DNA of 64,000 nt from positions 95,854 through 159,853 of the forward strand of contig CAZKWX010000001.1 in the NCBI GenBank assembly GCA_964556685.1, given 5' to 3'. Shown here in pieces: positions 14,344 to 53,952 of this stretch. The notes below the pieces were generated by a model, which had not been told where the DNA came from, made no database searches, and saw nothing but the letters and a program-made list of their open reading frames with translations. Made by a program: the position numbers and the translations under genes. Source of the stretch: an uncultured Bdellovibrionales bacterium. GTDB taxonomy: Bacteria; Patescibacteriota; Minisyncoccia; Moranbacterales; DUUL01. How positions within the stretch are numbered: position 1 is the first letter of the stretch; every line of letters begins with the position of its first letter.

Positions 14344-14403
14344 TTTTAGTTTTGCTTTTATTTATTACTTTAAATCTGATAATAACGCCTTGCGTTTGAA
14401 ACC

Positions 14404-14573
14404 TTGAGTTACGAGACTCATCCCCCCCTCTTCTAAAGAGGGTGCTGAATTTATTAGTAATGAATTCAGGGGAGTTCGTCTGTATGGCTGGCGACTACTG
14501 TCATTCAAACTAACCTCCTCCCTGCACTCGTCTTCAACGAGCACAGCCCCTTAACAAGGGGAGGGATAAAAAC
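14404..14573. repeat. multi-hairpin repeat element, left inverted copy flanking the GT4 pair
   Basis: A 40-nt identical core (agagggtgctgaatttattagtaatgaattcaggggagtt) plus hairpin modules (ccccttaacaaggggagg) match the reverse complement of 17341..17500. Confidence 0.8.
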
Positions 14574-14574
14574 A

Positions 14575-17307: not shown

Positions 17308-17340
17308 TTTCCGTTTTTCTCTATAATATTATGTTGGTAT

Positions 17341-17500
17341 GTTTTCCTCCCCTTGCTAAGGGGAGGGCTGAAAAGCGGATGAGCTTTTCAGGAGGGGTTA
17401 GTCTAAATGGCAGTAGTCACCAGCCACTTGGACTAACTCCCCTGAATTCATTACTAATAAATTCAGCACCCTCTTACCAAGAGGGGGAACGCAAACTCTA
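17341..17500. repeat. multi-hairpin repeat element, right inverted copy flanking the GT4 pair
   Basis: Reverse-complement homolog of 14404..14573. It contains hairpins cctccccttgctaaggggagg, gctgaaaagc..gcttttcag and ccctcttaccaagaggg. Confidence 0.8.
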
Positions 17501-22572: not shown

Positions 22573-22771
22573 GTCTATGTATATTTAGAAATAATTTTGT
22601 AACCCTTGAATCGAGTCCTGATTTTCTTAAGACCTACTACTTACAACCAGACATACAACCAACGCCCTTCTTACCTACTGCCTTCCAATAAAGTCCACGG
22701 CTGAGGGGAAAAGTTTACCACCGCTTTCCCCCTCGAGCTGAGAACTCTATCGCTTATAAGCGATCACGTAA

Positions 22772-23287
22772 CTATCGGATCCTGGTTACGTTGCTGTTCA
22801 CCAATACTGTAGCTTCTGCCCAAGAGTCAGCATCGCCAGTATAGATTTCTACTGCTCCACCTCGACCTCCACAACGACCACACCGTCCTCTTCTGCTTCC
22901 ATTGTCATTAGCATCGTTCTTGCCAGTGTCTGATTCAGCGCTAACATCATTGTCAACGTCAGCGTCGTTTCCATTGCCTACCCACACTCGACTGTGCCGA
23001 CCGCTAATCATAGTTCGGTTTTCGTTAGCGGTTGTGTCAGCGTAAGCATCAGATATAGCATCGCCGGTATCAATCATAACTCTTCTGGCTCGGTTTCGAT
23101 TAGCATCGTTCTTACCAGTGTCTGATTCAGCGCTAACATCATTGTCAACGTCAGCGTCGTTCCAGTTTTCTACTGAAACGCTAGACCCACGATGATGATG
23201 GCGTCCTGCGAAAGCTGGAGCAACTACGAATGCAAATACTATAGCCGCTACAGGAATAATTGCTAAATACTTTTTCATTTTGTTCAC
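22772..23287 (-). CDS. secreted paralog carrying the same repeat motif
   Basis: Signal peptide plus two copies of NDADVDNDVSAESDTGKNDAN...TGDA. Also His-rich and Gly/Arg/Cys-rich segments. Confidence 0.55.
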   Translation of the reverse strand: MNKMKKYLAIIPVAAIVFAFVVAPAFAGRHHHRGSSVSVENWNDADVDNDVSAESDTGKNDANRNRARRVMIDTGDAISDAYADTTANENRTMISGRHSRVWVGNGNDADVDNDVSAESDTGKNDANDNGSRRGRCGRCGGRGGAVEIYTGDADSWAEATVLVNSNVTRIR

Positions 23288-24048
23288 CTTCCTTTCTAGT
23301 TTTAAGATTTATTTTACTTTCTGTTTATTTCATGCATCGCAAACAAAAACTGCCCCTTGGTTCAACTTTTTTTCAAGTAAACCAAAAGGCAGTCCCTGTT
23401 GTTCGAAATCACAAAAATTTTTCTTGAGTCAGAACGCTCAGAACAAATCATTGTTATCTCCTCTAATTCTTATCAATCCCTCCGCCCCTCCAAACCCTCC
23501 AAATCTCAAAAGCGAACTAACCTCCTATTATCTTTCTTACATAAGCCCTAACTGCGTTCTTTCATTATGATATATAATAATTTCTTAAAATGCAAACTAT
23601 TCTTGCTTCTTCGAATACCTCATGTAGGAAACGCACATGTGCGTTTCCTACGCTGACATCTGTCTGCGTCTTCATGATCCGATAATTTTTTAAAAGTTTC
23701 TTTTTATAACAACACAACTAACTCTTCATTGTCAATTATCGGATATACTGAAAAGTCTTTATTTAAAGTAAACTATTAAAGCTAAAATCTTTTACTCTTT
23801 TCCGGGTTTTTATAACGTTTTCAATGTTTTTCAATGTTTAAATTTTCAATTCGAGTTTTTTATAAACAAAAACCATATAAAAAAACAGGCATGTCAATGC
23901 CCATCTATTTTTTCTCCCCCTGCCCACCTGCCTTCCGTAGCTTTCCTGGCCTTCATAGTTTTAGCGAAGTGGACAGCGAAGGAAGGAGGGGGAGATACAG
24001 AGGGGGTGGGAGCTTTTCCCCATCGCCCCTTTGACCTCAGTGCTCTTG

Positions 24049-26448: not shown

Positions 26449-26670
26449 TTTTTTTACAATTAATAATTACTTTATTTTTTGTAATCCTTTACGAATTACT
26501 AATCAAATACCAATATACCAATAAAAATCCTAAACTCTAAATTCAAATACCTGAAATTCAAAATGTTCTGAGCTTAAAATTTGGAAAATTTGAATTTATT
26601 TAGGGTTTAGATATTAGGATTTAGGATTTAAACAAATTCGTATATTCGTACAAAATTCGTAATTCGTAAC

Positions 26671-27303
26671 CTATCGTGAGTAGAATTCAAGTACTGCTGC
26701 TAGATCCACATCTGAGATTGCTTCCTCTTTGGTCGGCTTGGACAGAACTTTGGCTTGCATATTTTTGGGATCGAGCGAAAGCCACGATGGCGTTTCTTGT
26801 TTTTTCTTCATGATTGATCGCAATTCTTTCATGTAGGTCTTCTCCATTTTTCCTTCCTTCACCTGAATCTCCTGACCCACTTTGATCTTGGCTGAGGGAA
26901 CATTCAGCACCTTGTCGCCCACAGTGAACATACTGTGGCTGACTAGTTGTCGAGCTTGCGCCCGAGAGCTTGCGATTCCCAAACGATAGATTATATTATC
27001 AAATCTGGATTCCAATTCCAAAATTAGATTATCACCCACCACACCTTTTTGTTTTTGAGCATTTCCCAAATGCCGGCGCAATTGCCGCTCTGACAGGCCA
27101 TAAAGTCTTTTGAGCTTTTGCTTCTCGGCTAGCTGTTTTCCAAATTCTGAAAGTCCTCTTTGCCCTTTTGGCCCGTGCATTCCTGGCACATAGGGCTTTC
27201 TAGTCACCGCGCACTTTGGCGTGAGACACCGATCACCCTTAAGAAAGAGCTTCTCTCCAGCCCTGCGACAAAGTTTACATTTTGAATTCGAATCTTTCGC
27301 CAT
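26671..27303 (-). CDS. rpsD: 30S ribosomal protein S4
   Basis: CKLCRRAGEKLFLKGDRCLTPKCA zinc ribbon plus the S4 domain. Confidence 0.93.
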   Translation of the reverse strand: MAKDSNSKCKLCRRAGEKLFLKGDRCLTPKCAVTRKPYVPGMHGPKGQRGLSEFGKQLAEKQKLKRLYGLSERQLRRHLGNAQKQKGVVGDNLILELESRFDNIIYRLGIASSRAQARQLVSHSMFTVGDKVLNVPSAKIKVGQEIQVKEGKMEKTYMKELRSIMKKKQETPSWLSLDPKNMQAKVLSKPTKEEAISDVDLAAVLEFYSR

Positions 27304-27492
27304 TTTAGATAATACTTAATAATGCTAATCTCATGCGAATTTTGCTAATATACCAATCGTTTTTTCTATTCGCATATTCGCAACATTCGCATACCATTCG
27401 TAGATTAGTATTATATTGTTCGTATCATTCGCATATCATTCGCCCGCCTGCTTTGCATGCACAGCATTGCGGGCAGGTGGATTAGTATTACA
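27304..27492. repeat. intergenic cassette between rpsK and rpsD with 11-bp terminal inverted repeats
   Basis: ATAATACT...GGATTAGTATTA ends. Internal CTAATCTCATGCGAAT, (C)ATTCGCAT direct repeats and a conserved GC hairpin (cattcgcccgcctgctttgcatgcacagcattgcgggcaggtgg). Confidence 0.75.
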
Positions 27493-28086
27493 TTAAACTC
27501 TTCTGGGCTTCTTTGGTCGACAACCATTGTGAGGAATTGGAGTTACATCTTTGATTGAAGACAAATTATATCCTTTCTGAACTAATGCCCGCAGAGCTGC
27601 ATCTCGACCACTGCCAACACCTTTAATGAAAACTTCGACATCTCTCAGGCCGAATCTTTGCACCTTGTCATGCGCATCATTGATCACTTGAGCAGCCGCG
27701 TAGGTGGTTGCTTTCTTGGCTCCTCTGAATCCCAAAAGTCCCGCCGAAGACCAAGCCAAGCCGTTGCCATGAATATCTGTGAATTGAATAGTGGTGTTGT
27801 TATAAGTCGACTTGATATATGCTCGTCCTTTCTGAATTTGTCTTCGAATCTTCTTTTTCTTTCGTCCGGAAGACTTATCGTCATTTTCTTTTTTACCCTT
27901 ATCATCTTTGCCAGTATCTTTTCTGTTTTCCTTTTTTTCATCAGCACTCTTGGATGTTTTGCTTTTTTTCTCCACCACAACATCGGCCTCTTTCGAGATC
28001 TTTTCTTCTTTCGCGTCAGCGCCCTTCGTAGCCCCGTTTTGACGGGGCGAAGTAGGGTCTTCAGTTTTCTTTTTCTCTTCAGCCAT
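27493..28086 (-). CDS. rpsK: 30S ribosomal protein S11 with ~70-aa Lys/Glu-rich N-terminal extension
   Basis: S11 core (GRAYIKSTYNNTTIQFTD...GSGRDAALRAL). Confidence 0.92.
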   Translation of the reverse strand: MAEEKKKTEDPTSPRQNGATKGADAKEEKISKEADVVVEKKSKTSKSADEKKENRKDTGKDDKGKKENDDKSSGRKKKKIRRQIQKGRAYIKSTYNNTTIQFTDIHGNGLAWSSAGLLGFRGAKKATTYAAAQVINDAHDKVQRFGLRDVEVFIKGVGSGRDAALRALVQKGYNLSSIKDVTPIPHNGCRPKKPRRV

Positions 28087-28313
28087 ATAAATATAATACT
28101 AATAACACTAATCTCATGCGAATGCCGCTAATACGCTAATAAATACAATACTAATGGATGTTACTTTATGCTAATCTTTCCTAGGTTCAATTCGCATATT
28201 CGCATCATTCGCATATCATTCGCCCGCCTGCTTTGCATGCACAGCATTGCGGGCAGGTGGATTAGTATTATACCCATTTGTACATCTGTATATCTGTACT
28301 TAATCTGTAATTA
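28087..28313. repeat. intergenic cassette between rpsM and rpsK (same family, TIRs ATAATACTAAT / ATTAGTATTAT)
   Basis: Same module order as 27304..27492. The GC hairpin is identical over 53 nt. Confidence 0.75.
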
Positions 28314-28703
28314 CTATGTTTTTTCAACACTCCTTCGACCACTGCCCATGGTCACTCGCTTATTACCTCGTACTGTACGCGTGTTGGTTCTGGTCTTTTG
28401 GCCCCGCACTGGCAATCCCTTGCTATGTCTTGATCCGCGATAGGAACCAACTTCTTTGAGTCGCTTGATGTTCATTGACTTCTGCCGCTTCAATTCTCCT
28501 TCTAGCGTATACTTATCTTCAATTTCGGCCCGCAGTTTGTTCAGATCATCGGCTGAAAGTTTGCCGGCTCGAATATCCTTGTCGATACTCAATCTATCCA
28601 AGATTTCTCCAGCTCGAGAACGACCGATGCCATAAACATAGGTTAGGGAAATTTCTATTCTTTTTTCATCGGGAATGTTCACCCCGGCGATTCTTACAGC
28701 CAT
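28314..28703 (-). CDS. rpsM: 30S ribosomal protein S13
   Basis: [27 protein letters not shown]... The start was moved from the ORF-track start to this internal Met. Confidence 0.92.
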
Positions 28704-28856
28704 AATTATAATACTAAATGACACTAATCTCATGTGAATACCACTAATATGCTAATCTTCTGTCCGATACTTATTCGCATATTCGCGTCATTCGCATGTC
28801 ATTCGCCCGCCTGCTTTGCATGCACAGCATTGCGGGCAGGTGGATTAGTATTGCGT
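28704..28856. repeat. intergenic cassette between rpmJ and rpsM (same family)
   Basis: Left end TAATACTAAAT, internal CTAATCTCATGTGAAT, ATTCGCAT repeats, identical GC hairpin, right end GGATTAGTATT. The right end abuts the rpmJ stop. Confidence 0.75.
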
Positions 28857-28970
28857 CTATCCTTGTCGTTGTTTATGCTTCGGATTTTTACAAATAACAT
28901 AAACTCGCCCTTTGCGTCGGACGATTTTACATTTGTCACATCTTTTTTTTACCGAAGCTTGAACTTTCAC
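28857..28970 (-). CDS. rpmJ: 50S ribosomal protein L36 (GTG start)
   Basis: Not in the ORF track (37 aa). Hand translation gives [37 protein letters not shown], a perfect L36 zinc-ribbon signature. Confidence 0.85.
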
Positions 28971-29335
28971 AGTTGTTTACGAATTACCTGCCCGCTTTGT
29001 GTTGCTGACTGGTAATGTTTTGCTAAATGCAATTAATTATTTGGAAAAAAATAACTTAAATCTGATTATCAAAGCAAGGCAGGCGGGCTAATCAAATACC
29101 AATATACGGATCTTTCTGTCAACGTTTAATGTCTAGTCTTAGTTCTCTTGTTTCCTTTCCCCCTTTAGCAAAGGGGGGAAGGAAAATATAGGCGAGTGAA
29201 GCGAGCCATATTTTTCAGGCCTGCCCTACGAAGCTTTCCTGACCTTCGTAGTTTCAACGAAGTAGGTTAGCGAAGTAGGGGGGATTTGAATTTGTTCGTA
29301 TATTCGTACTAAATTCGTAATTCGTAGAGAACTTT

Positions 29336-29554
29336 CTAGAGCCTGCGAGTAATCCGGCCTTTGGTCAAATCATAGGGACTCATTTCGATTTCAACCTTAT
29401 CACCCGGCATCAATTTGATAAAATGAATTCTCATTTTCCCGGAAATATGCGCCAAAATAATATGCCCGTTTTCAAGTTTGACTCGGAACATTGTGCTGGG
29501 AAGCAACTCGGTCACTTCCCCTTCAAGTTTTACAATTTCCTTTTCCTTAGACAT
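29336..29554 (-). CDS. infA: translation initiation factor IF-1
   Basis: [42 protein letters not shown]... The start was trimmed to the internal Met. Confidence 0.9.
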
Positions 29555-29907
29555 AAATGTAATACTAATGATGCTAATCTCATGCAAATACCACTAATAT
29601 GCTAATAAGTACAATACTAATGATGCGAATTTATGCTAATCTACAAATATGCTAATCTTACTTAAGTTCTATTCGCATATTTGTGTCATTCGCATTCATT
29701 TGTAAATTTGTATTATACCTATTCGTATATTCGTACACAATTCGTAATTAGTAGAAAACACAAAAACAGAAGGTGTTTTAAACAGACCGGTCCGAGGTCT
29801 TGATTTCAACCCTATAACCTTCGTTAGTTACGTATGAATAAATTTTTCAAGATTAACCGCTACAATCCAGACTATATAAAAAAGCAGTAATTGTCAAGCG
29901 TTTTCGG

Positions 29908-34906: not shown

Positions 34907-35329
34907 TTATTCAGTCATATTCACTTTCTTATTAAAATAACACTCAACCAAATTCTTTGTTGCTGGAAACAAATTGTCAGGAATAGCATCTTTGATAAAC
35001 CATTCCCACCTTTCCCAATCTTCTGGAAGAAGCACTTTGGGTTCATCATCAATTTCAGCAGTCACTCCAATCCCGATGTAGTGATTATCCAGAGCATAGT
35101 TTGTGTTGACGCAGATGAGTTCATATTTTGTAACATTACAACCAAACTCTTCTTTAATATTTCTTTTGACCGTGTCACCAATTTTCTCACCAAACTGAAC
35201 GTCTCTCCCAGGAACACCATAAACTTGTTTGCCTTCATAATTCCATTTTTCAGTTAGCAAACCAAGAAGAATCTTATCTCCTTTCAGAACGAGAATATCA
35301 ACATTGATTCCCGGTGATTTTGCAAGCAT
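34907..35329 (-). CDS. NUDIX hydrolase
   Basis: Nudix box GRDVQFGEKIGDTVKRNIKEEFG. The start was trimmed to the internal Met (MLAKSPG). Confidence 0.7.
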   Translation of the reverse strand: MLAKSPGINVDILVLKGDKILLGLLTEKWNYEGKQVYGVPGRDVQFGEKIGDTVKRNIKEEFGCNVTKYELICVNTNYALDNHYIGIGVTAEIDDEPKVLLPEDWERWEWFIKDAIPDNLFPATKNLVECYFNKKVNMTE

Positions 35330-35391
35330 AAAAATACTCTTAGGGGATTGGGAAAACGACAGCATGTTACTAAGTCGTTTTCCCGAGAGGC

Positions 35392-36630: not shown

Positions 36631-36725
36631 TACTACTCCTAAACAACCACACTTACCAACCTCCCCTTCACATAAATCACTTTCTCGGGTTTTTTACCGT
36701 CCAGACTTTGGATTCTTAAATCTCT
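36631..36725 (-). repeat. degenerate copy 1 of the leuS 3' terminus
   Basis: Hand translation gives ...GKKPEKVIYVKGRLVSVVV*. The genuine LeuRS C-terminus is KKPKKVIYVKGRLVNIVT*. Confidence 0.7.
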
Positions 36726-37200
36726 CAAAAATCAAATGTGTCGAATTGCTACCGAAGGCATACTTTCGAAACAAGCTGTCTTCCAAAGATGCTAGCTCCA
36801 GATTGTTCTTTGTTTCTCCCCTAATCCATAGATTGTGACGAGTATGGTCTACTAAATAAGCTTCCGTTATCGCCCTGAATTTTCCAAAGTCAATCTTATC
36901 TGGTCTTGAATATTCTACTAACCACCAAAATGGTAGGTTATTTCCAATATCGTCGCCAACAAAATGGAGCACCGTTCTTATGATGTGTAGTTCAAAATTC
37001 TTTTTGTCTATTTTTCCATTGAATTTAGTTACGATGTTGTTCATCGCTGATTCCCAAGTACTCTTATGTGCATTAATCTTAGCCAAACCATCGAAAGCAC
37101 CTGTTGTCGTATCGCAATATTCACATTCATCTAGCTTGGTTAATTCTCCAGCAACCATCATATTCGGATTACTTTCGTTGATCTGTACAAAATATTTCAT
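36694..37200 (-). CDS. hypothetical protein located between the duplicated leuS 3'-end copies
   Basis: 168-aa ORF with no recognisable motif. Confidence 0.4.
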   Translation of the reverse strand: MKYFVQINESNPNMMVAGELTKLDECEYCDTTTGAFDGLAKINAHKSTWESAMNNIVTKFNGKIDKKNFELHIIRTVLHFVGDDIGNNLPFWWLVEYSRPDKIDFGKFRAITEAYLVDHTRHNLWIRGETKNNLELASLEDSLFRKYAFGSNSTHLIFERFKNPKSGR

Positions 37201-37243: not shown

Positions 37244-37340
37244 TTCTTTTATACAACTACACTCACCAACCTCCCTTTTACATAAATCACCTTCTTTGGC
37301 TTCTTACTGCCTAAATATTTTTGAATTTTCTCACTTCCAA
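37244..37340 (-). repeat. degenerate copy 2 of the leuS 3' terminus
   Basis: Hand translation gives ...GSEKIQKYLGSKKPKKVIYVKGRLVSVVV*. Confidence 0.7.
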
Positions 37341-37354
37341 GGGCAACCCGCACA

Positions 37355-37382
37355 CACTCTCATATATGCATATATGAGAGTG
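37355..37382. repeat. 28-bp perfect palindrome cactctcatatatgcatatatgagagtg (second copy at 50669..50694)
   Basis: Verified base by base. It lies directly between the leuS stop and leuS-3' copy 2. Confidence 0.85.
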
Positions 37383-37388
37383 CTCGTG

Positions 37389-40300
37389 TTAAGTTACAAT
37401 GTTAACTAGCCGTCCTTTCACATAAATCACTTTCTTTGGTTTCTTTCTTCCTAAGTGTCTTTGTACTTTTTCGCTTCCCAAAGCAATCTTCTCTGCTTCT
37501 TTCTCTGAAATATCTTTTGAAACCATCACTTTATCACGCACTTTGCCATTGACCTGAATCACCAATTCAATTTCATCTTCAATTACTTTCTTGGGATCAA
37601 ACTTGGGCCATCTTTGTTCAAAGATTGAAGTATGCTTCTGGGCTTTCTTATTTTCCCCCTTTAGCAAAGGGGGTGTCCCGGCCTTGCCGGGACGGAGGAT
37701 TTGAAGTTCAGCCCAAAATTCTTCCGCTATATGAGGTGCCATTGGGGCTATAACCAATGCTAACGTCTCTTTTACCTTTTTAGCTTGAACTTTGTTAAAA
37801 TCATCTTTGTGATCCCGCATCCAGTTGACATATTCCATAATCCTCGCCACTGCTGTGTTGAAAGAAAGTTTTTCAATATCTTCTCCAACAACTTTGATTG
37901 TTTTGTCAATCATAGACATGTTCAATGGCTTTGTCTTGTTTTGTAGATGACGCAGATCTGCGTCATCTACAGACTTTGTATCGTCTGCTCCTACCTCATG
38001 AAAAACTTTCCACATTCGATTGAGGAACTTGTGCATTCCTTCAATGCCACTGTCTCGCCAGTCACCACCTTGGGCAAAGTCTCCTACAAATCGAAGATAG
38101 AGCCGTACAGTGTCAGCACCATACTTTTTGATCGCATCATCGGGGTTAACCACATTGCCTTTCGATTTGCTCATCTTAGTCCCGTCTTTGGTAATCAAAC
38201 CATGTCCAAAAAATCTCTTGTAAGGCTCGTCAAAATCAATGTAACCCAAGTCTTTCAAAACCATGGTCATGAAACGAGAATAAAGAAGATGTAAGACTGT
38301 GTGCTCCTTGCCACCAATGTAACTGTCCACCGGCAGCCATTTCTTGGTTCGCTTTCTGTCAAAAATCACCTCATTAAATTCAGTCGATGGATAGCGGAAA
38401 AAATACCAAGCGCTGTCGAGGAACGGATCCGAGACATCGGTTTCTCGCTCGGCGTCTCCTTCACAAACTGGGCATTTAACTTTGACAAACTTTTCATTTT
38501 TGGCCAAAGGCCCCTTGCCTTTCCCTTCCGGCAAAAAATCTTCCATCGGTGGTAATTTCACCGGAAGATCTTCCTCGGGAACCGAGACTGCCACTGGCTC
38601 AATACTCTCTTGGATTTTCTCTAGCAATTCTGGAAACTTCTTATTCTTTGGATTATCATCTACACAAAAATGCTTCCTGCCTTTAAGTTTTATTAATTTT
38701 GCACCCAACTTATTGCTAATCATCTCTGCACTTTCAACTCGATGAGTTTTGTCATTTGAGATAAAAATGGTCAGACTCTCAATCTGGTTTTTCAAACTCG
38801 AGTCAATTTTAAAATCAACAAAGCCTTTTATTCGCTCTTCTCTCTTAACTAATTTTTTAGATGGAGCATTTAAAATAACATTTCTAGCTTTTCTCCCTGT
38901 TTCTGATAGCCATTTTAATATAAAAGCTCCTCCGGCACTTGTTCCAACTAAAATTGTATCTTCATCAACATCAAAATTATCAATAGTTTCTTTCCAGTCT
39001 TCATAGTCCGGCTTCCAGTCTGTCGGCATAATTGGATTTATAACTTCAAATCCGTTCTTTTTCAGCTCTTTTTCAAGCCAGCTATGCCAATGTCGAACAT
39101 TCGGTTCAACATAATCTTTGTCGTGAGCTTTCGTCCGACCTGAAGAACCATGGATCATTAAAACTTTAATCCTTTTCAGCCCCTCCTTTTTCCTCCCCTT
39201 ACTAAGGGGAGGATTTAGGTGGGGTCCAAGCGCACAGCGCTTGCACCAGACAATCGGAATCGGCGGCCCCCAATATCTTTGCCGTGAAATGCACCAGTCA
39301 CGTAATTTGTAATTAACCGTCCATTTTCCATTTCCCTTTTCGACAGAAAAATCACCAATTGCTTTTCGAGCTTTCTTGGTTGGCATATCATCGAATTTCC
39401 CAGCATTCATCATCAGTCCCTCATTAACATAAGCCTTTTTCATTTTCTTTGGATCAAGCTTCTTTTCTCCCTTGGGATAAATCACGGGCACCAAATCTAG
39501 CTTATATTTTTTGGCAAACTCAAAATCTCTTTGATCGTGAGTGGGAGTGCACTTTACAATTCCCGTGCCATATTCATAGACAGCGAAATTAGCAGTATAA
39601 ATTGGCATTTCCCGGCCATTGAGATGATTGATCGCATACCGACCTGTAAAAAATCCTTCTTTCTTCTTTTCGACGTTGGCTGGGTCTTTGACTTTTTCTT
39701 CAATCACCTTCCGGCAGAAATCTTTGGCTCCTTTTTCATATTTTGTGCCTTGGACTAATTCATCAACAACAGGATGTTCTGGAGCAACAACCATAAAAGT
39801 AGCTCCCCAAGTGGTGTGTGGCCAGGTGGTAAAAGTTTTCAATTTTAATTTTATATCTTTGACTTTCCATTCTTCTTCCAAACCTTTACTTTTTCCAATC
39901 CAATTCCTCTGATTGGTTTTCACATCATCCGGCCAGTCGATCCAATCTAAATTCTTTAATAGCTGATCGGCATATTTAGTAATAGCAAAAAACCATTGCT
40001 TTAATTCTTTTTTCTCAACAACGCTGTCGCAGCGTTCGCACTTTCCTGCAATCACCTGTTCATCAGACAAAACTGTTTTACATGAAGGACACCAGTTCAC
40101 CTTGGCTTCTTTTTGATAGGCTAGTCCCTTCTTGAACATCTGCAGAAAAATCCATTGAGTCCACTTATAATAATTCGGTTTGTAAGTCTCCACTGTCCGC
40201 GACCAATCATACATGTTTCCGATTTCATGCAATTGCCGATAGAAATTTTTCTCACTCCTTTTAGAAACATCGCTAATGTGTTCGCCAATTTTCATGGCAT

Positions 40301-40583
40301 AGTTCTCACTGTGAATGCCAAATCCATCCAAACCAATCGGCTCAAAAACGTCATAGCCTTCTAACTTCTTGAAACGCCCATAGACATCGGCTCCGGTGAA
40401 GGCATACATGTTCCCCACATGCAATCCTTCTGCGGAGGGATAGGGGAACATCATCAGATTGTGAAATGGCTTCTTGGCTTTGTCCAAATCGGGTCGAAAA
40501 ACACCTGAGTCTTTCCAGGATTTTTGCCATTTTTTTTCGATAGATTTGAAATTATATTTCGGAATTGGTTGCTTTTTTGTCAT
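37389..40583 (-). CDS. leuS: leucine--tRNA ligase with inserted alpha/beta-hydrolase domain
   Basis: HIGH-type motif (GLHVGNMYAF), KMSKSKGN, and the CP1/editing and anticodon domains. It is 1064 aa, longer than typical bacterial LeuRS. About 210 extra residues sit between ...VWCKRC and VSVPEEDLPVKLP. Confidence 0.9.
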   Translation of the reverse strand: MTKKQPIPKYNFKSIEKKWQKSWKDSGVFRPDLDKAKKPFHNLMMFPYPSAEGLHVGNMYAFTGADVYGRFKKLEGYDVFEPIGLDGFGIHSENYAMKIGEHISDVSKRSEKNFYRQLHEIGNMYDWSRTVETYKPNYYKWTQWIFLQMFKKGLAYQKEAKVNWCPSCKTVLSDEQVIAGKCERCDSVVEKKELKQWFFAITKYADQLLKNLDWIDWPDDVKTNQRNWIGKSKGLEEEWKVKDIKLKLKTFTTWPHTTWGATFMVVAPEHPVVDELVQGTKYEKGAKDFCRKVIEEKVKDPANVEKKKEGFFTGRYAINHLNGREMPIYTANFAVYEYGTGIVKCTPTHDQRDFEFAKKYKLDLVPVIYPKGEKKLDPKKMKKAYVNEGLMMNAGKFDDMPTKKARKAIGDFSVEKGNGKWTVNYKLRDWCISRQRYWGPPIPIVWCKRCALGPHLNPPLSKGRKKEGLKRIKVLMIHGSSGRTKAHDKDYVEPNVRHWHSWLEKELKKNGFEVINPIMPTDWKPDYEDWKETIDNFDVDEDTILVGTSAGGAFILKWLSETGRKARNVILNAPSKKLVKREERIKGFVDFKIDSSLKNQIESLTIFISNDKTHRVESAEMISNKLGAKLIKLKGRKHFCVDDNPKNKKFPELLEKIQESIEPVAVSVPEEDLPVKLPPMEDFLPEGKGKGPLAKNEKFVKVKCPVCEGDAERETDVSDPFLDSAWYFFRYPSTEFNEVIFDRKRTKKWLPVDSYIGGKEHTVLHLLYSRFMTMVLKDLGYIDFDEPYKRFFGHGLITKDGTKMSKSKGNVVNPDDAIKKYGADTVRLYLRFVGDFAQGGDWRDSGIEGMHKFLNRMWKVFHEVGADDTKSVDDADLRHLQNKTKPLNMSMIDKTIKVVGEDIEKLSFNTAVARIMEYVNWMRDHKDDFNKVQAKKVKETLALVIAPMAPHIAEEFWAELQILRPGKAGTPPLLKGENKKAQKHTSIFEQRWPKFDPKKVIEDEIELVIQVNGKVRDKVMVSKDISEKEAEKIALGSEKVQRHLGRKKPKKVIYVKGRLVNIVT

Positions 40584-41402: not shown

Positions 41403-41520
41403 TAAAGACAAAAGGGGCTCGAAATCACTTTTTACATACCGCGGCTTTATTAAAAGTCGCGGTTCATCTTTTTTTGGGAATATGCTATAATTTAACAAAG
41501 AAGATTCTCTTCTCAGGTTT

Positions 41521-41640
41521 ATTTGCTTCCCTTGGTGCAAGGGGAGATTAAGAGGGGTTAGCTTGAATAGCAATAGAGACCGGCCAATTCACTTAACTCC
41601 CCTTAGTCCCCTCTTTCCAAAAGAGGGGAAATGAATAAGT
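41521..41640. repeat. short copy of the multi-hairpin element family
   Basis: cttcccttggtgcaaggggag...gaggggttagcttgaatagcaatagagaccggccaattcacttaactcccc...cccctctttccaaaagaggggaaa. It aligns to 17341..17500 with the central gaattc hairpin deleted. Confidence 0.7.
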
Positions 41641-41676
41641 TTCTTGTAGTTTAAAGTAATCTATAATTCTCCTCTG

Positions 41677-47820: not shown

Positions 47821-48345
47821 TCAAATCAATCGCAGCTTTTTAGAAATGATTTTATAATCAGGTATGGCTCTAGCAGTTAATTCCCAAAAAAAATTCGAAT
47901 GATTCATTTCTTTCAAATGACACATTTCATGCACCACCAGGTAGTTAGCCAGCTCATCTTCCAGCCACACAATCCGCCAATTGAAATTCAGATTTCCTTT
48001 CTTACTGCAACTTCCCCAGCGAGTTTTTTGATTGCGGATGGAAATGCGATTTATTCGAAAATTATAATACTGATTAAACCTATTGATCTTATTTTCAATC
48101 AATCTTCGTGCTTTCTCTTTATTATCCAAATAATCTTGCCTGGTTCCTTTTTTGAGTAAACTGTCGCTTTTTCTGGCTTTCATCTTGGCCACATTCTTTT
48201 CAATCCAATTTCGTTTTTGCTGAGTAAACTTCTCTGCTTGCTTTCGATTTGACCACCAGGGATAGGTCACCAAAACTTTTCCGTCTTCTCCAACAGAAAT
48301 TCTGATTCGCTTGTTTCTCTTATTGCGCCTGATTATGATTTGCAT
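47821..48345 (-). CDS. YgjP/DUF45-family zinc metallohydrolase (HExxH)
   Basis: HEMCHL motif and the family-typical C-terminus. The start was moved to the internal MQIIIRR because the ORF-track N-terminus is encoded by a hairpin repeat. Confidence 0.6.
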   Translation of the reverse strand: MQIIIRRNKRNKRIRISVGEDGKVLVTYPWWSNRKQAEKFTQQKRNWIEKNVAKMKARKSDSLLKKGTRQDYLDNKEKARRLIENKINRFNQYYNFRINRISIRNQKTRWGSCSKKGNLNFNWRIVWLEDELANYLVVHEMCHLKEMNHSNFFWELTARAIPDYKIISKKLRLI

Positions 48346-48557
48346 TCCTTCTTTATTTCCCCCTTTAGCAAAGGGGGAAGAAGAATTGAGACGAATCATG
48401 TTACCGAAAGGTAACGTGATGAGTCCAATTCTTCAGGGGGATTTGAATTTATAGTACTGAAAATCCCTCTGAAAAATATGGCTTATTACATTCGCCTATA
48501 TTTTCCTTCTCCCTTTTTCAAAGGAAGAAACACAATTAAATTCATGATTCGTAAAAC

Positions 48558-51219: not shown

Positions 51220-53952
51220 ATGAAGAAAGAACTACCAAAAGCATACGAGCCCAAGAAATATGAGGATGAGATTTATGAGAAATGGGAAAAGTCAGGAATG
51301 TTTAACCCTGACAGTTTAGACGTGGATGAAAAGGCCGAAAGCTATTCAATTGTCATGCCCCCACCCAATGTGACTGGCACGCTTCACTTGGGTCACGCTG
51401 AAATGCTGGTTGTGGAAGATATTCTGATTCGTTATCACCGCATGCTGGGTCATCGAACTTTGTGGACCCCGGGAACAGATCACGCTGCTATTGCCACCCA
51501 AACAAAAGTGGAAAAAATTCTCAAAGAAGAAGGCACTGATCGACACAAACTGGGAAGAAAAAAATTTCTGGATAGAGTAGAGAAATATGCTGAGGAATCG
51601 CACGATACCATCGTGGGGCAAGTGAAAAAAATGGGTTCTAGTTGTGATTGGTCGCGTGAGGCCTACACTTTGGATGAAACACGCCATAAAGCGGTCTATT
51701 CTGTTTTCAAGATGATGTATGACGATGGTTTGATCTATCGTGGTGAACGAATTGTTAATTGGTGCCCTCGCTGCCATTCAACCTTGGCTGATGATGAAGT
51801 AGAATACATCGAAGAAAATGGAAAGCTTTATTGGATCAAGTATGGACCATTCACTTTGGCCACTGCCCGACCAGAAACCAAGTTGGGCGATACGGCTGTG
51901 GCTGTTCATCCTGACGATGAGAGATATAAGGATATGGTGGAAAAGGAATACGACATTCCTGGAGTGCTGGGAGAATTTAAAATTAAAGTCGTGGCTGACA
52001 AATCAGTTGATCCTGAATTTGGATCCGGCGCTATTAAAGTAACCCCTGCTCACAGTTTGGTTGATAATGAAATCGCCCAGAGACATGATCTGCCATCCAA
52101 AAAAATTATCGATGAAGATGGAAAGATGATGGAAAATTGTGAAAAATATGCTGGTCTAACTACCAAAGAAGCACGTAAAAAAATTGTGGCTGACATGAAG
52201 AAGATGGGCTTGATTGATCACATAGACGAAAATTATTCCCACAATATCGCTGTTTGCTATCGCTGCGACACGCCGATTGAGCCGCTTCCTTCTGAACAAT
52301 GGTTTATTGATGTGAATAAGCCGCTACCCAAAAAGAAGCTAAGTTTCCTTGGAAACTTAGCTTCTAAAGACTCAAAAACTATCAAAGAAATTTGTTTGGA
52401 AGTTGTTCGAGAAGGAAAAATTAAAATTATTCCAGAAAGGTTTGAAAAACAATATTTCCATTGGATGGAAAATCTGCGTGATTGGTGCATCTCACGCCAG
52501 ATTTGGTATGGACATCAAATTCCTGTTTGGTACAAAAATGACGAAGCTTATGTTGGCGTTAAAGCGCCAAGAGAAGACGGTTGGACTCAAGATCCGGACA
52601 CGCTTGACACTTGGTTTTCTTCCGGGCTTTGGACTTTCTCAACTCTAGCCAACAAGCTCGATCAAATTAGAATTGAGGACGGGAAACTGGTCATTGATAG
52701 TAAGGACTATAGTCAGTACCACCCAACTGATGTGCTTGAAACAGGTTATGATATTCTTTTCTTCTGGGTAGCTCGTATGATCATCATGACCACCTATGCT
52801 GTGGGTGATCTTCCTTTCAAAGATGTTTACCTTCATGGCTTGGTGCTTGACGAACATGGAAAGAAAATGAGCAAATCGAAGGGCAACGTCATCAATCCAC
52901 TGGACATGTGTGAAAAGTATGGCACCGATGCCACTCGCCTATCATTGGTCGTTGGTGCGGCACCTGGAAAAGATTTTCGATTGTCTGAAGAAAAAATTGC
53001 TGGCTTTCGAAATTTTTCTAATAAATTATGGAATATATCTCGATATATTCTTGAAAATGGTAGAAAAAATGCCGAGGTTTCACCGCGAGTACTCGCGGTG
53101 AAACCTCAAGTAAAGTTTCAGAAATTATCAGATAAATTGACTTTGGCTGATCGATGGATTCTAAAAAGAATTCACGAGTTAATTCATGAATTAAATATAG
53201 ATTTAAATAAGTATCAATTTTCTGCTGCTGGTGAAAAGTTGCGTGATTTTACTTGGAACGACTTGGCTGATTGGTATCTGGAAGTGAGTAAATTTGAGGA
53301 AAACAAGGAAACCAAAGCAGCGATCTTGAATATGATTCTAAAAGATTTGCTCAAACTTTGGCATCCTTTCATTCCATTTGTCACTGAGAAGATTTGGGAG
53401 GAAATGGGAGAGGAAAAAATGTTGCTAGTCTCTAATTGGCCGAAATATAGTGAACGCAGATCTGCGTTCACTACAAATGATACAACTGATTTCAAGACTG
53501 TTCAAAAAATCATCATTGTAATTCGCAACGCTCGGGCTCAATATCATATAGAACCAAAACAAAAAATTGATGTGGTGATCTATACTGGAAAAAATGTAGA
53601 GCTCATCAAATCTCAGGAAAATATCATCAGAAATCTTCGAACTGGAATTGAAAACCTCAAGATTGAAGAAAAAGGAGAAAAGCTACCCAAATCTTTTTCC
53701 GATTCTGTTAATGGAATTGAAATTCACATTCCGCTTAAGGATGTCATTGATATTGACAAAGAAAAAGCCCGTTTAGAAAAAGAAATCCAAGCCGCAGAAA
53801 AATATTCTGCTAGCCTGGAAAAAAAATTTAAAAACAAATCTTTTGTCGACAAGGCACCAAAAAAAATTGTTGATCAGGAAAAAGAAAAATTGGCTGAGAA
53901 AAATGACCAAATAGAAAAACTAAAATCATATCTTGATGGACTCTCAACCTAG
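51220..53952 (+). CDS. valS: valine--tRNA ligase
   Basis: PPPNVTGTLHLGHA, KMSKSKGN and a C-terminal coiled coil. 910 aa. Confidence 0.92.
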   Translation: MKKELPKAYEPKKYEDEIYEKWEKSGMFNPDSLDVDEKAESYSIVMPPPNVTGTLHLGHAEMLVVEDILIRYHRMLGHRTLWTPGTDHAAIATQTKVEKILKEEGTDRHKLGRKKFLDRVEKYAEESHDTIVGQVKKMGSSCDWSREAYTLDETRHKAVYSVFKMMYDDGLIYRGERIVNWCPRCHSTLADDEVEYIEENGKLYWIKYGPFTLATARPETKLGDTAVAVHPDDERYKDMVEKEYDIPGVLGEFKIKVVADKSVDPEFGSGAIKVTPAHSLVDNEIAQRHDLPSKKIIDEDGKMMENCEKYAGLTTKEARKKIVADMKKMGLIDHIDENYSHNIAVCYRCDTPIEPLPSEQWFIDVNKPLPKKKLSFLGNLASKDSKTIKEICLEVVREGKIKIIPERFEKQYFHWMENLRDWCISRQIWYGHQIPVWYKNDEAYVGVKAPREDGWTQDPDTLDTWFSSGLWTFSTLANKLDQIRIEDGKLVIDSKDYSQYHPTDVLETGYDILFFWVARMIIMTTYAVGDLPFKDVYLHGLVLDEHGKKMSKSKGNVINPLDMCEKYGTDATRLSLVVGAAPGKDFRLSEEKIAGFRNFSNKLWNISRYILENGRKNAEVSPRVLAVKPQVKFQKLSDKLTLADRWILKRIHELIHELNIDLNKYQFSAAGEKLRDFTWNDLADWYLEVSKFEENKETKAAILNMILKDLLKLWHPFIPFVTEKIWEEMGEEKMLLVSNWPKYSERRSAFTTNDTTDFKTVQKIIIVIRNARAQYHIEPKQKIDVVIYTGKNVELIKSQENIIRNLRTGIENLKIEEKGEKLPKSFSDSVNGIEIHIPLKDVIDIDKEKARLEKEIQAAEKYSASLEKKFKNKSFVDKAPKKIVDQEKEKLAEKNDQIEKLKSYLDGLST

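What the first reader, a model, noticed from the sequence alone, without database searches (positions are those of the whole stretch)
38600..39250. leuS carries a complete alpha/beta-hydrolase (Ser-hydrolase/YdeN/RBBP9-like) domain inserted in frame
Bacterial LeuRS normally reads ...RQRYWGxPIPxxxCxxCG-VPVPEEDLPVxLP across this junction. Here about 210 residues are intercalated between WCKRC and VSVPEEDLPVKLP: IKVLMIHGSSGRTKAHDKDYVEPNVRHWHSWLEKELKKNGFEVINPIMPTDWKPDYEDWKETIDNFDVDEDTILVGTSAGGAFILKWL...NVILNAP. This has the order and spacing of the Ser_hydrolase family, including a G-x-S-x-G nucleophile elbow (GTSAG). The 5' edge of the insert is itself encoded by a copy of the genomic hairpin repeat (PLSKGRKKEG comes from cccctcctttttcctccccttactaagggg). 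This suggests the repeat mediated the domain acquisition. The reading frame, KMSKS and the anticodon domain are intact. The gene is probably functional with a novel appended esterase-like module. It has no intein boundaries (no C/S...HN).
Basis: partly seen in the sequence, partly recalled or inferred. Interest (0 to 1): 0.78.

Follow-up and report, generated by a model that had tools for sequence, protein, structure and literature searches.

The report
Serine hydrolase domain nested inside LeuRS
The leucyl-tRNA synthetase gene of this ultra-small (Patescibacteria) bacterium really does carry a complete RBBP9/YdeN-type serine hydrolase domain spliced in frame into a zinc-knuckle loop; the same undescribed arrangement recurs at three different sites in many such bacteria and in tiny archaea, which suggests a working link between the hydrolase and LeuRS.

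Summary
ORF 37389-40583 (-) encodes a 1064-aa bacterial-type LeuRS with intact HIGH, KMSKS, CP1 editing and Zn-knuckle motifs. About 215 residues (aa 451-665) sit between the two CxxC halves of the knuckle. Residues 470-660 are a bona fide PF06821 (YdeN/RBBP9) alpha/beta serine hydrolase: Pfam 48.7 bits against a cut-off of 22, TM 0.85 to 1uxo and 2qs9, nucleophile Ser and His conserved.

It is not unique. Dozens of Patescibacteria LeuRS, and LeuRS in MAGs labelled DPANN archaea, carry such modules at three sites, often with a NUDIX domain, and stand-alone copies often lie next to leuS. Rarer hosts are UvrB, Der, a GT2 glycosyltransferase and a pseudouridine synthase.

The window's LeuRS core nests among carriers of a vertically inherited "type-1" module. 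Its own "type-2" module is 59-60% identical to stand-alone genes elsewhere and has foreign, AT-rich composition, so it was re-acquired or swapped.

The hairpin at the 5' junction is real, but it is one of three lineage-specific palindromic micro-insertions in leuS. It is a later passenger, not the vehicle of domain acquisition.

The function is inferred: an active aminoacyl (free alpha-amine) ester/amide hydrolase coupled to LeuRS. I found no description in the searchable literature.

The parts
37389..40583 (-). leuS coding sequence, 1064 aa, a single open frame (bacterial-type LeuRS carrying the nested module)
   Evidence: ORF list. TIGR00396 leuS_bact 844.5 bits against a cut-off of 548. Full-length AF2 model matches T. 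thermophilus, E. coli and N. gonorrhoeae LeuRS at TM 0.76-0.80 normalised by target. HIGH (H55, G57), KMSKS (803-807) and CP1 residues T252, T253, T257, H349, D350, D353 are invariant across 27 homologues.
39234..39245 (-). First CxxC (C447, C450) of the four-Cys knuckle; the insertion point ('site A') lies directly after it
   Evidence: C447, C450, C704 and C707 are invariant in 27 LeuRS with or without an insert. Junction alignment.
39180..39227 (-). Palindromic micro-insertion 1, forming the N-terminal linker (aa 453-468, GPHLNPPLSKGRKKEG); it contains the hairpin CCCCTTAGTAAGGGG
   Evidence: Absent from all 26 aligned relatives. 45-nt imperfect palindrome I1. It shares about 35 nt with the intergenic element at 17342-17380. 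pLDDT below 50. It carries 2 of the 3 SNPs that separate the window from contig L084.
38604..39176 (-). RBBP9/YdeN-type serine hydrolase module ('type 2'), aa 470-660
   Evidence: PF06821 at 48.7 bits. Profile against PDB hits YdeN and RBBP9. AF2 and Foldseek. 59-60% identical to the stand-alone proteins P0001 and P0002. GC 0.346 and GC3 0.288, against 0.414 and 0.423 for the rest of the gene.
38937..38939 (-). Codon of the nucleophile Ser549 in the G-T-S-A-G-G elbow
   Evidence: Aligns with RBBP9 Ser75 and with the YdeN nucleophile. Ser is invariant in 42 of 42 embedded modules and 116 of 117 others.
38751..38753 (-). Codon of Asp611 (SND motif), the candidate acid of the catalytic triad
   Evidence: This column is at least 90% conserved in the type-2 alignment A1. 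In the wider alignment the canonical acid column is one residue later, where the window has Lys612, so the assignment is inconclusive.
38670..38672 (-). Codon of His638 (K-H-F), the catalytic histidine
   Evidence: Aligns with RBBP9 His165. His is invariant in 42 of 42 embedded modules.
38589..38603 (-). Short C-terminal linker (aa 661-665, IEPVA) before LeuRS resumes at VSVPEEDLPV
   Evidence: Alignments. There is no stop codon and no HN/Cys intein junction.
38463..38474 (-). Second CxxC (C704, C707) of the knuckle, now 254 residues from the first instead of about 40
   Evidence: Invariant columns. Junction alignment.
37923..37971 (-). Palindromic micro-insertion 2 (aa 874-887, DADLRHLQNKTKPL; perfect 30-nt palindrome at 37942-37971)
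   Evidence: Specific to the window among 27 LeuRS. Inverted repeat I2 is 100% complementary. pLDDT below 50 at 869-885.
37641..37703 (-). Palindromic micro-insertion 3 (aa 961-981, QILRPGKAGTPPLLKGENKKA): a miniature copy of intergenic repeat family 2, antisense to leuS
   Evidence: Specific to the window. It keeps both termini of the family-2 element, TTTTCCCCCTTTAGCAAAGGGGG...GGAGGATTTGAA. pLDDT below 50 at 964-983. It carries the third SNP against L084.

Best explanation
A functional bacterial-type LeuRS of a Patescibacteria (CPR) organism carries an autonomously folding RBBP9/YdeN-family (PF06821) alpha/beta serine hydrolase. The hydrolase is nested in frame in the surface loop between the two CxxC halves of the four-Cys knuckle that follows RQRYWG. 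SHOWN: the domain's identity and fold; intact LeuRS synthetic, editing and zinc motifs; independent assemblies of the fusion; recurrence of such modules in LeuRS at three different sites and as stand-alone genes next to leuS; invariance of the nucleophile Ser and the His in all 42 embedded modules examined; and co-divergence of the common 'type-1' module with its host. Also shown: this lineage's module is a different 'type 2' with foreign, AT-rich composition, although its LeuRS core nests among type-1 carriers. INFERRED: an ancestral site-A insertion was later overwritten in this lineage by an imported type-2 module, most simply by recombination through the highly conserved LeuRS flanks. Afterwards a palindromic repeat element landed in the N-terminal linker, as two others did elsewhere in the gene. 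INFERRED MECHANISM: the module is an active hydrolase tethered to LeuRS. By analogy with RBBP9, which forms acyl-enzyme adducts with single Leu/Ile, Met, Phe, Tyr or Trp residues and needs a free alpha-amine, it would cleave aminoacyl esters or amides. Candidate substrates are stray or mis-made aminoacyl esters, or N-terminal hydrophobic residues of peptides. It would act alongside LeuRS in leucine or aminoacyl turnover, not on its own. My confidence is about 0.95 for the structural claim, about 0.75 that the module is catalytically active, and about 0.45 that its function is specifically coupled to LeuRS.
For: Domain identity. Host integrity. Not an artefact. Recurrence: about 40 of the 120 best LeuRS hits carry PF06821, and the three insertion sites are mapped. 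In 80 GTDB loci of the module family, 23 are embedded in LeuRS and 7 lie directly adjacent to leuS, against 1 in UvrB and 1 in a pseudouridine synthase. LeuRS is the most frequent neighbour family of stand-alone copies. No IleRS or ValRS host was seen, although these enzymes share the architecture. Selection on catalysis: Ser and His are present in 42 of 42 embedded modules. Within the type-1 clade the module averages 52% identity and the core 71%, with r=0.66, and HS.GS, S..D and W....HF are invariant. Swap or import: core identity to type-1 carriers is 0.66-0.70, but module identity to them is 0.26-0.36, against 0.59-0.60 to stand-alone P0001 and P0002. Module GC3 is 0.288 against 0.423 for the host part, and no host window is that low; the closest homologue's genome has GC 0.32. 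Chemistry of the family: PMC8866121. The RBBP9 residues Leu103, Glu108, Arg109 and Gly112 align without gaps to Leu578, Glu583, Arg584 and Gly587.
Against: The same module is also nested in UvrB, EngA/Der, a GT2 glycosyltransferase, YdjC and a pseudouridine synthase, and it travels with NUDIX and His_Phos_1. This fits a host-independent house-keeping enzyme as well as it fits a LeuRS partner. The CP1 editing site is intact, so no proofreading gap is evident. The acid of the triad is not in the canonical column, because the window has Lys612 there. Relative orientation of the hydrolase and LeuRS active sites could not be measured. The trees are neighbour-joining trees on modest alignments. No biochemical data exist for any prokaryotic member of the family. 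One sample (L084) has a TGA at codon 453, which would split the gene.
Confidence: 0.55

Rival explanations
1. Host-independent passenger. The module is an ordinary small house-keeping ('house-cleaning') hydrolase. In the streamlined genomes of CPR and DPANN it has repeatedly become nested, together with NUDIX, His_Phos_1, Ham1 and similar enzymes, in permissive surface loops of large, constitutively expressed essential proteins. LeuRS is merely the most tolerant carrier, and there is no mechanistic coupling to aminoacylation.
For: Other hosts are UvrB (with His_Phos_1 in tandem), Der, GT2, YdjC and RluD-like proteins, plus fusions to NUDIX. Unrelated enzymes (NUDIX, GIY-YIG, Ham1, a nucleotidyltransferase) occupy the same LeuRS sites. 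NUDIX and His_Phos_1 recur as neighbours of stand-alone copies. All three sites are loops, and LeuRS is known to tolerate idiosyncratic insertions (own knowledge; PMC13114784 treats aaRS as preferred insertion hosts).
Against: LeuRS outnumbers every other host by about an order of magnitude (30 of 80 loci linked to leuS, against 1 each for the others). Linkage also occurs as plain gene adjacency, on either side of leuS, which loop tolerance cannot explain. The structurally similar IleRS and ValRS were not seen as hosts, and the window's own second class-I aaRS at 51220-53952 has no module.
Confidence: 0.3
2. Selfish nested module. The hydrolase, with its companion small enzymes, behaves as a mobile cassette that persists because imprecise loss would destroy an essential gene. 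Its own enzymatic activity is incidental or decaying in this copy.
For: The module appears at several sites and in several hosts. It has been replaced at the same site and has foreign composition. GIY-YIG endonuclease domains occur in some LeuRS relatives. In this genome leuS is visibly a target for DNA insertions, with three palindromic elements and two displaced 3'-end remnants. The canonical acid column holds Lys in this copy.
Against: No endonuclease, transposase, intein or intron signature lies in or next to the window's insert. Ser and His are invariant in 42 of 42 embedded copies, and the type-1 module co-diverges with its host over long times, which indicates purifying selection on catalysis. 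Most family members are ordinary stand-alone genes.
Confidence: 0.1
3. The repeat-mediated acquisition proposed by the first reader. The hairpin repeat at the 5' edge is the scar of the event that brought the domain, or the type-2 replacement, into leuS.
For: The hairpin sits exactly at the N-terminal junction. The module in this lineage was replaced or imported, so a junction scar is conceivable. The element family is present elsewhere in the genome.
Against: Relatives have a module at the identical junction without any hairpin peptide, including P0012, which also has a type-2 module. There is no matching repeat at the 3' junction. Two further palindromic micro-insertions sit in the same gene far from the module. 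The linker evolves fast or neutrally: 2 of the 3 SNPs against a 99.9% identical contig lie in it.
Confidence: 0.05

Closest known systems
RBBP9 (human) and YdeN (B. subtilis), Pfam PF06821 Ser_hydrolase
   Same: Same family by profile and same fold (TM 0.85 normalised by target, rmsd 2.2-2.4 A). The GxSxG nucleophile and the His are conserved. The RBBP9 residues that cage the side chain and anchor the alpha-amine (Leu103, Glu108) align to Leu578 and Glu583. RBBP9 removes single hydrophobic amino acids with a free alpha-amine (PMC8866121), and a 2020 paper title names it a valacyclovir-activating enzyme (reference list of PMC7730578).
   Different: Those proteins are stand-alone proteins of about 190 aa, whereas this one is nested inside LeuRS. 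Sequence identity is only about 20%. The acid residue sits one position earlier (SND-K against STD-D). There is an extra loop (RTKAHDKDYVEPNVR). No substrate is known for any prokaryotic member.
CP1 editing domain of LeuRS, IleRS and ValRS (PF13603 in LeuRS)
   Same: It is also a hydrolytic domain nested in the Rossmann fold of a class Ia synthetase. It cleaves an aminoacyl ester, which is the kind of bond the RBBP9 family can cleave.
   Different: The fold is unrelated and the insertion point is different. CP1 is universal and is present and intact here (PF13603 E=7e-55; motifs). The new module is lineage-restricted and additional, not a replacement.
NCBIfam NF040702 'ileS_w_GNAT' (IleRS containing an N-acetyltransferase domain)
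   Same: It is a curated precedent for a class Ia synthetase carrying an unrelated small enzyme domain (listed).
   Different: The host is IleRS and the passenger is a GNAT. The window's protein matches that model only through the shared synthetase core (60 bits against a cut-off of 1999).
Free-standing trans-editing and aminoacyl-ester hydrolases (AlaX, YbaK/ProXp, DTD; BPHL valacyclovirase) - own knowledge, plus the abstract of PMC10261862 for BPHL
   Same: They are small hydrolases that act on aminoacyl esters of a ribose or nucleoside and are functionally tied to aaRS. Stand-alone copies of the present family often lie next to leuS.
   Different: Their folds are different, except BPHL, which is an alpha/beta hydrolase of another family. 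No activity on aminoacyl-tRNA is shown for PF06821.
Rickettsia palindromic elements (RPE) and other MITE-like repeats inserted in frame into coding genes (own knowledge: Ogata et al. 2000)
   Same: They are short palindromic repeats with several genomic copies that insert in frame into essential genes and add tolerated surface peptides. Here there are three such insertions in leuS (39, 42 and 63 nt), all predicted to be disordered.
   Different: The organism and the sequences are different. Copy number in the 64-kb window is small. Homology to RPEs was not tested. Insertion 2 has no second copy in the window.

Membership tests
Pfam PF06821 Ser_hydrolase (YdeN/RBBP9) | Scores above the Pfam gathering threshold over most of the model | tested here: met
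   48.7 bits against 22, covering aa 496-643 and profile positions 12-158 of 172. A subfamily profile hits YdeN at E=5e-19 and RBBP9 at E=3e-14.
Pfam PF06821 Ser_hydrolase (YdeN/RBBP9) | Compact alpha/beta-hydrolase fold without a lid, superposable on 1uxo and 2qs9 | tested here: met
   AF2 pLDDT 82.5 and pTM 0.79. Foldseek top hits are 1uxo, 2qs9, 9fcr and 7oex at TM 0.84-0.85 normalised by target, rmsd 2.2-2.4 A.
Pfam PF06821 Ser_hydrolase (YdeN/RBBP9) | Nucleophile Ser in a GxSxG elbow, and the catalytic His | tested here: met
   G-T-S549-A-G and K-H638-F align with RBBP9 Ser75 and His165. Both are invariant in 42 of 42 embedded modules.
Pfam PF06821 Ser_hydrolase (YdeN/RBBP9) | Catalytic Asp after strand beta-7 (RBBP9 Asp138) | tested here: inconclusive
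   The window has S-N-D611-K612. Asp611 is at least 90% conserved in the type-2 set. The canonical column, D or E in 40 of 42 embedded modules, is Lys612 here. A one-residue shift is plausible but not proven.
Pfam PF06821 Ser_hydrolase (YdeN/RBBP9) | Hydrolase activity on an aminoacyl amide or ester with a free alpha-amine | not testable with these tools
   There is only an analogy to RBBP9 (PMC8866121) and the alignment of Glu108 to Glu583.
Bacterial leucine--tRNA ligase (TIGR00396) | Equivalog model score above the cut-off, and the LeuRS-type CP1 domain | tested here: met
   844.5 bits against 548.4. PF13603 at E=7e-55. Full model matches solved bacterial LeuRS at TM 0.76-0.80 normalised by target.
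Bacterial leucine--tRNA ligase (TIGR00396) | HIGH and KMSKS signatures, the CP1 Thr-rich and HDxxD motifs, and the Zn cysteines | tested here: met
   H55, G57; K803-S807; T252, T253, T257; H349, D350, D353; C447, C450, C704, C707. All are invariant among 27 homologues.
Bacterial leucine--tRNA ligase (TIGR00396) | Aminoacylation of tRNA(Leu) | not testable with these tools
   Inferred from the intact motifs. No second leuS lies in the 64-kb window, but the rest of the genome was not seen.
Intein | Hint domain blocks, an N-terminal Cys/Ser, and a C-terminal His-Asn followed by Cys/Ser/Thr | tested here: not met
   No Hint, intein or LAGLIDADG hit in Pfam. The whole insert is accounted for by the hydrolase fold. 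The C-junction reads ...IEPVAV|SVPEE, without HN.
Known LeuRS insertion domains (CP1, ZN1, leucine-specific domain) | Sequence or fold similarity of the extra segment to one of these | tested here: not met
   The segment matches only alpha/beta hydrolases. None of the top-listed solved LeuRS chains (621-876 aa) is long enough to hold it.
RPE-like in-frame palindromic repeat elements | Palindromic, a multiple of 3 in length, absent from orthologues, with other copies in the genome | tested here: met
   The insertions are 39, 42 and 63 nt, are palindromes I1 and I2 plus a double hairpin, and are absent from 26 relatives. Insertions 1 and 3 have intergenic relatives. Insertion 2 has no second copy in the window.

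The most novel reading that the evidence does not exclude
The RBBP9/YdeN-type module, often together with a nested NUDIX domain, is a previously unrecognised LeuRS-dedicated accessory activity of ultra-small CPR and DPANN organisms. It would be an alpha/beta-hydrolase that cleaves aminoacyl esters or amides in cis, either as a second proofreading or aminoacyl-turnover site or as a leucine-supplying aminopeptidase. It has been recruited to LeuRS several times independently, at three insertion sites and by gene adjacency. A broader version of the reading is that a guild of small hydrolases forms exchangeable nested modules that colonise essential proteins in these lineages.
Probability: 0.3. Interest if true: 0.85.

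Novelty: new variant of a known kind. Interest (0 to 1): 0.7.

Why it matters
Aminoacyl-tRNA synthetases are among the best-studied enzymes. Their accessory domains (editing domains, and the appended domains of eukaryotes) have repeatedly revealed new biology.

Here an intact serine hydrolase is repeatedly recruited to LeuRS. The only characterised relative of that hydrolase strips single hydrophobic amino acids from amide or ester linkages. The recruitment occurs at three sites and by gene adjacency, in the two groups of ultra-small, host-dependent prokaryotes.

This gives a concrete, testable lead to the unknown physiological role of the YdeN/RBBP9 family. It also points to how CPR and DPANN cells handle amino-acid supply or aminoacylation fidelity.

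It further documents domain swapping at a fixed site inside an essential gene. It shows RPE-like palindromic elements in a Patescibacteria genome, and neither appears in the literature I could search.

Public records name these proteins only 'leucine--tRNA ligase' or 'class I tRNA ligase family protein'.

Tried and rejected
- **Assembly chimera:** rejected. The intact ORF is present on an NCBI contig and on a separate Logan contig listed for 3 samples.
- **Intein or intron:** rejected. There is no Hint or endonuclease domain, no Rfam hit in the window apart from three tRNAs, the frame is continuous, and there is no stop codon.
- **CP1 or leucine-specific-domain variant:** rejected.
- **Pseudogene:** rejected for the window copy, because all motifs are intact. 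One other sample does have a TGA at codon 453, and that remains unexplained.
- **Genetic code 25 (TGA = Gly) as an explanation for that TGA:** considered unlikely, because the long ORFs in the window read cleanly with table 11.
- **Insert-only word-index search:** it found only 11 stand-alone proteins and wrongly suggested uniqueness. The full-length search and the exhaustive profile search corrected this.
- **Hairpin-associated intergenic blocks that looked tRNA-like:** ARAGORN and Rfam found nothing there.
- **JGI metagenome scan for closer relatives of the junction:** nothing closer than 36% identity.
- **GTDB scan:** the source genome is not among the loci returned (best 50% identity).
- **Promoter and terminator scan of the gene:** matches were at chance level.
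- **Literature searches for a prior description:** nothing relevant was found.
- **Independent origin of the fusion in Archaea:** not claimed. The LeuRS hosts in DPANN-labelled MAGs score as bacterial-type, so horizontal transfer of the composite gene is likely.
Full report
**1. The observation**

Window 37389-40583 (minus strand) is one open frame of 1064 aa. It scores 844.5 bits on the bacterial LeuRS equivalog TIGR00396 (cut-off 548), and the first matched stretch stops at aa 457. Pfam finds the class-I core, the LeuRS CP1 editing domain (PF13603, E=7e-55) and the anticodon-binding domain. Between them it finds PF06821 Ser_hydrolase at aa 496-643 (E=1.1e-12, 48.7 bits against a gathering score of 22).

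Insert-free relatives read YCEKCG|WHPVSEENLPV or YCRKCG|MSPVPEKDLPV. The window reads WCKRC-[aa 451-665]-VSVPEEDLPV. The insertion therefore lies directly after the first CxxC of a four-Cys knuckle, and C447, C450, C704 and C707 are all invariant in 27 homologues.

The intact protein is on record from an NCBI contig of 164,880 nt and from a separate Logan contig listed for 3 samples. It is not an assembly chimera.

**2. What the insert is**

Residues 470-660 align end to end with stand-alone proteins of about 190-200 aa; the closest are P0001 and P0002 at 59-60% identity. A profile of that alignment hits only YdeN (1uxo, E=5e-19), RBBP9 (2qs9, 7oex and 9fcr, E=3e-14) and one other alpha/beta hydrolase in the PDB.

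An AF2 model of aa 446-675 has pLDDT 82.5 and pTM 0.79. Its best Foldseek matches are 1uxo and RBBP9 (TM 0.84-0.85 normalised by target, rmsd 2.2-2.4 A). Ser549 and His638 align with RBBP9 Ser75 and His165. The acid is ambiguous. Asp611 (SND motif) is at least 90% conserved in the close set, but the canonical column one residue later is Lys612 here.

There is no Hint or intein, endonuclease or intron signature, and the C-junction has no His-Asn. The host is intact: HIGH, KMSKS, and the CP1 Thr-rich and HDxxD motifs are conserved. The full-length model superposes on solved bacterial LeuRS (TM 0.76-0.80 normalised by target).

**3. It is not unique**

All 120 best hits of a full-length search that carry a source name are Patescibacteria (CPR) LeuRS. 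About 40 of the 120 are 1004-1442 aa long and carry PF06821. Many also carry NUDIX (PF00293), and a few carry GIY-YIG, Ham1 or nucleotidyltransferase domains. The nearest insert-free LeuRS are about 800-850 aa.

I mapped each long protein onto an insert-free reference (P0021). This shows three insertion sites:

| Site | Reference position | Location | Content |
|---|---|---|---|
| A | about 445-447 | Zn knuckle | hydrolase (as in the window) |
| B | about 364-382 | end of CP1 | mostly NUDIX, sometimes the hydrolase |
| C | about 230-241 | entry into CP1 | hydrolase in some proteins |

An exhaustive profile search finds 3240 family representatives (E up to 1e-3). Most of the best 150 are stand-alone, with a minority embedded.

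In GTDB genomes the family occurs in Patescibacteria and in MAGs labelled DPANN archaea. Of 80 loci, 23 have the module inside a LeuRS open frame and 7 have it as a separate gene directly next to leuS, on either side. LeuRS is also the most frequent neighbour family in a census of 85 flanking ORFs. It is followed by NUDIX, further Ser_hydrolase copies and His_Phos_1. The LeuRS hosts in the archaeal-labelled MAGs score as bacterial-type, so I do not claim an independent archaeal origin.

Rarer hosts of the same module are:
- UvrB, once in tandem with His_Phos_1;
- EngA/Der;
- a GT2 glycosyltransferase;
- YdjC;
- an S4-pseudouridine synthase;
- plus fusions to NUDIX and tandem duplicates.

**4. 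History in this lineage**

Twenty-three site-A modules from relatives form one clade ('type 1'). Within that clade, module and host co-diverge (module mean identity 0.52, core 0.71, r=0.66), and the elbow, Asp and His stay invariant. That is the signature of an old, vertically inherited and catalytically constrained insertion.

The window's LeuRS core nests among these carriers (core identity 0.66-0.70). Its module is nevertheless only 26-36% identical to theirs. It groups instead with stand-alone P0001 and P0002 and with a UvrB-hosted copy (56-60%).

Its composition is foreign. GC is 0.346 and GC3 is 0.288, against 0.414 and 0.423 for the rest of leuS. No same-size host window is that low, and all other long ORFs in the window have GC3 of at least 0.34. 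The closest homologue's genome has GC 0.32.

The simplest reading is that a resident module was overwritten, or the site re-used, by a recently imported type-2 module. This is an inference from neighbour-joining trees and composition.

**5. The hairpin repeat**

The repeat is real. The 15-nt palindrome has 3 copies against 0.13 expected, and the junction shares about 35 nt with an intergenic multi-hairpin element at 17342-17380. However, relatives have the same junction (WCxxCA(L/K)K..KVLxIHG) without it, including P0012 with its own type-2 module.

Against 26 relatives, the window's LeuRS has three lineage-specific micro-insertions:
- aa 453-465, 39 nt, a 45-nt imperfect palindrome;
- aa 874-887, 42 nt, containing a perfect 30-nt palindrome;
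- aa 961-981, 63 nt, a miniature copy of intergenic repeat family 2 that keeps both termini and lies antisense to leuS.

All three are predicted to be disordered (pLDDT below 50). A contig from another sample (L084) is 99.91% identical over 3419 nt. All 3 of its differences fall inside insertions 1 and 3, which is about 7e-5 if the differences were placed at random over the 144 nt of the three insertions.

The hairpin is therefore a later, neutral, RPE-like passenger in a permissive linker. It is not the vehicle of domain acquisition.

**6. Mechanism**

*Shown.* An intact LeuRS carries an intact, well-folded PF06821 domain, and the nucleophile and His of such domains are under long-term constraint when embedded.

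*Inferred.* The domain is active. By analogy with RBBP9, it acts on aminoacyl esters or amides. [quoted passage not shown] Leu103, Glu108, Arg109 and Gly112 of RBBP9 align without gaps to Leu578, Glu583, Arg584 and Gly587.

*For coupling to LeuRS.* There are several independent recruitments, at three sites and by adjacency on either side. LeuRS has about a ten-fold excess over any other host. No IleRS or ValRS hosts were seen.

*Against coupling.* The module also nests in unrelated proteins and travels with NUDIX and His_Phos_1. CP1 editing is intact.

I put about 0.45 on LeuRS-coupled function, about 0.3 on a host-independent passenger enzyme and about 0.1 on a selfish or decaying module.

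**7. Comparison with what is known, and novelty**

The closest known relatives and precedents are:
- RBBP9 and YdeN: same family, but stand-alone;
- the CP1 editing domain: the same idea of a nested hydrolytic domain, but an unrelated fold;
- the curated 'ileS_w_GNAT' architecture NF040702: precedent for a small enzyme inside a class Ia synthetase;
- free-standing trans-editing factors;
- for the hairpins, Rickettsia palindromic elements.

Six literature searches and two full-text checks found no description of hydrolase or NUDIX insertions in CPR or DPANN LeuRS. Public records name these proteins simply as LeuRS.

I rate it a new variant of a known kind: an aaRS with a nested accessory domain. 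It is real and recurrent, and it offers a testable functional lead for an orphan hydrolase family.

Noticed in passing
window 39227, 39197 and 37691, compared with locus L084 (Logan SRR29008690_11799): A contig from another sample is 99.91% identical over 3419 nt. All 3 of its differences lie inside the palindromic micro-insertions. One converts Gly453 (GGA) to TGA, so gene callers split leuS there into a 452-aa N-half and a 589-aa protein (hydrolase plus C-half) starting at Met476. It could be a read error at a hairpin, a defective allele, or a naturally split LeuRS.
   Followed up: partly
window 37923-37971 and 37641-37703: Two further lineage-specific in-frame palindromic insertions lie in leuS (42 nt with a perfect 30-nt palindrome; 63 nt that is a miniature of an intergenic repeat, antisense to the gene). 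Both are predicted to be disordered. This is RPE-like behaviour in a Patescibacteria genome.
   Followed up: yes
window 17320-17500 (+), 14340-14590 (-), 41500-41650 (+); and 11650-11800 (-), 29130-29290 (+), 48330-48480 (+): There are two families of intergenic multi-hairpin elements of about 100-150 nt. Family 1 has a 12-bp stem GAGGGGTTAGTC...GACTAACTCCCC and several further hairpins. Family 2 has the termini TTTCCCCCTTTAGCAAAGGGGG...GGGGGATTTGAA. They are not tRNAs and have no Rfam match. Whether they are structured RNAs or MITE-like repeats is unknown.
   Followed up: partly
window 37252-37359 and 36642-36710: Two decayed copies of the LeuRS C-terminus (...KKPKKVIYVKGRLVSVVV; 69% and 65% identical to the live end) lie downstream of the leuS stop. 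They are separated by an unannotated 168-aa ORF (36694-37200, no Pfam hit). The pattern looks like successive integrations that replaced the 3' end of leuS.
   Followed up: partly
window 34907-35365 (-): A small stand-alone NUDIX-like gene (22.7 bits against a cut-off of 21.1) lies about 2 kb downstream of leuS on the same strand. In many relatives a NUDIX domain is nested inside LeuRS itself, at site B.
   Followed up: no
L005 4009-7383; P0134; P0175; P0143; L062; P0210: The same hydrolase module is nested in UvrB (in L005 in tandem with a His_Phos_1 domain), in EngA/Der between its two GTPase domains, inside a GT2 glycosyltransferase, in an S4-pseudouridine synthase, and fused to YdjC. This suggests a guild of small hydrolases nested in house-keeping proteins of CPR and DPANN.
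   Followed up: partly
P0049, P0056 (GIY-YIG), P0054 (Ham1; 1442 aa with two hydrolase modules), P0097 (nucleotidyltransferase), P0039-P0050 (NUDIX only): Other CPR LeuRS carry different enzymes at the same insertion sites. P0054 has modules at two sites plus a Ham1/ITPase domain.
   Followed up: no
L001 8650-10546 (also L002 and L003): In the genome of the closest stand-alone homologue (59% identity), the hydrolase gene starts 2 bp after serS, overlaps a GT2 gene downstream, and lies two genes from another class II aaRS.
   Followed up: partly
L008, L010, L021, L063: MAGs labelled Pacearchaeota or 'archaeon' encode a LeuRS that scores as bacterial-type (TIGR00396, 860-920 bits) and carries the nested hydrolase. 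L008 additionally has a second, stand-alone module gene immediately downstream.
   Followed up: partly
window aa 795-807 of LeuRS (about 38163-38200): The distance from RQRYWG to KMSKS in insert-free relatives is only about 156-160 aa, and the window reads ...GLITKDGTKMSKS. These CPR LeuRS therefore seem to lack the leucine-specific domain, like the Mycoplasma mobile enzyme with its GKDG tetrapeptide (abstract of PMC3643597).
   Followed up: no
window 26600-29760: A cluster of direct repeats (80-nt units that are 93-98% identical at 27410, 28190 and 28773, plus the related families D8, D9, D12 and D20) is interleaved with small ORFs. I did not examine it.
   Followed up: no
window 21050-23290: Internal direct repeats (families D1, D2, D5, D11) lie within the 921-aa ORF 19807-22572 and the neighbouring ORF. 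This is probably a repetitive surface protein.
   Followed up: no
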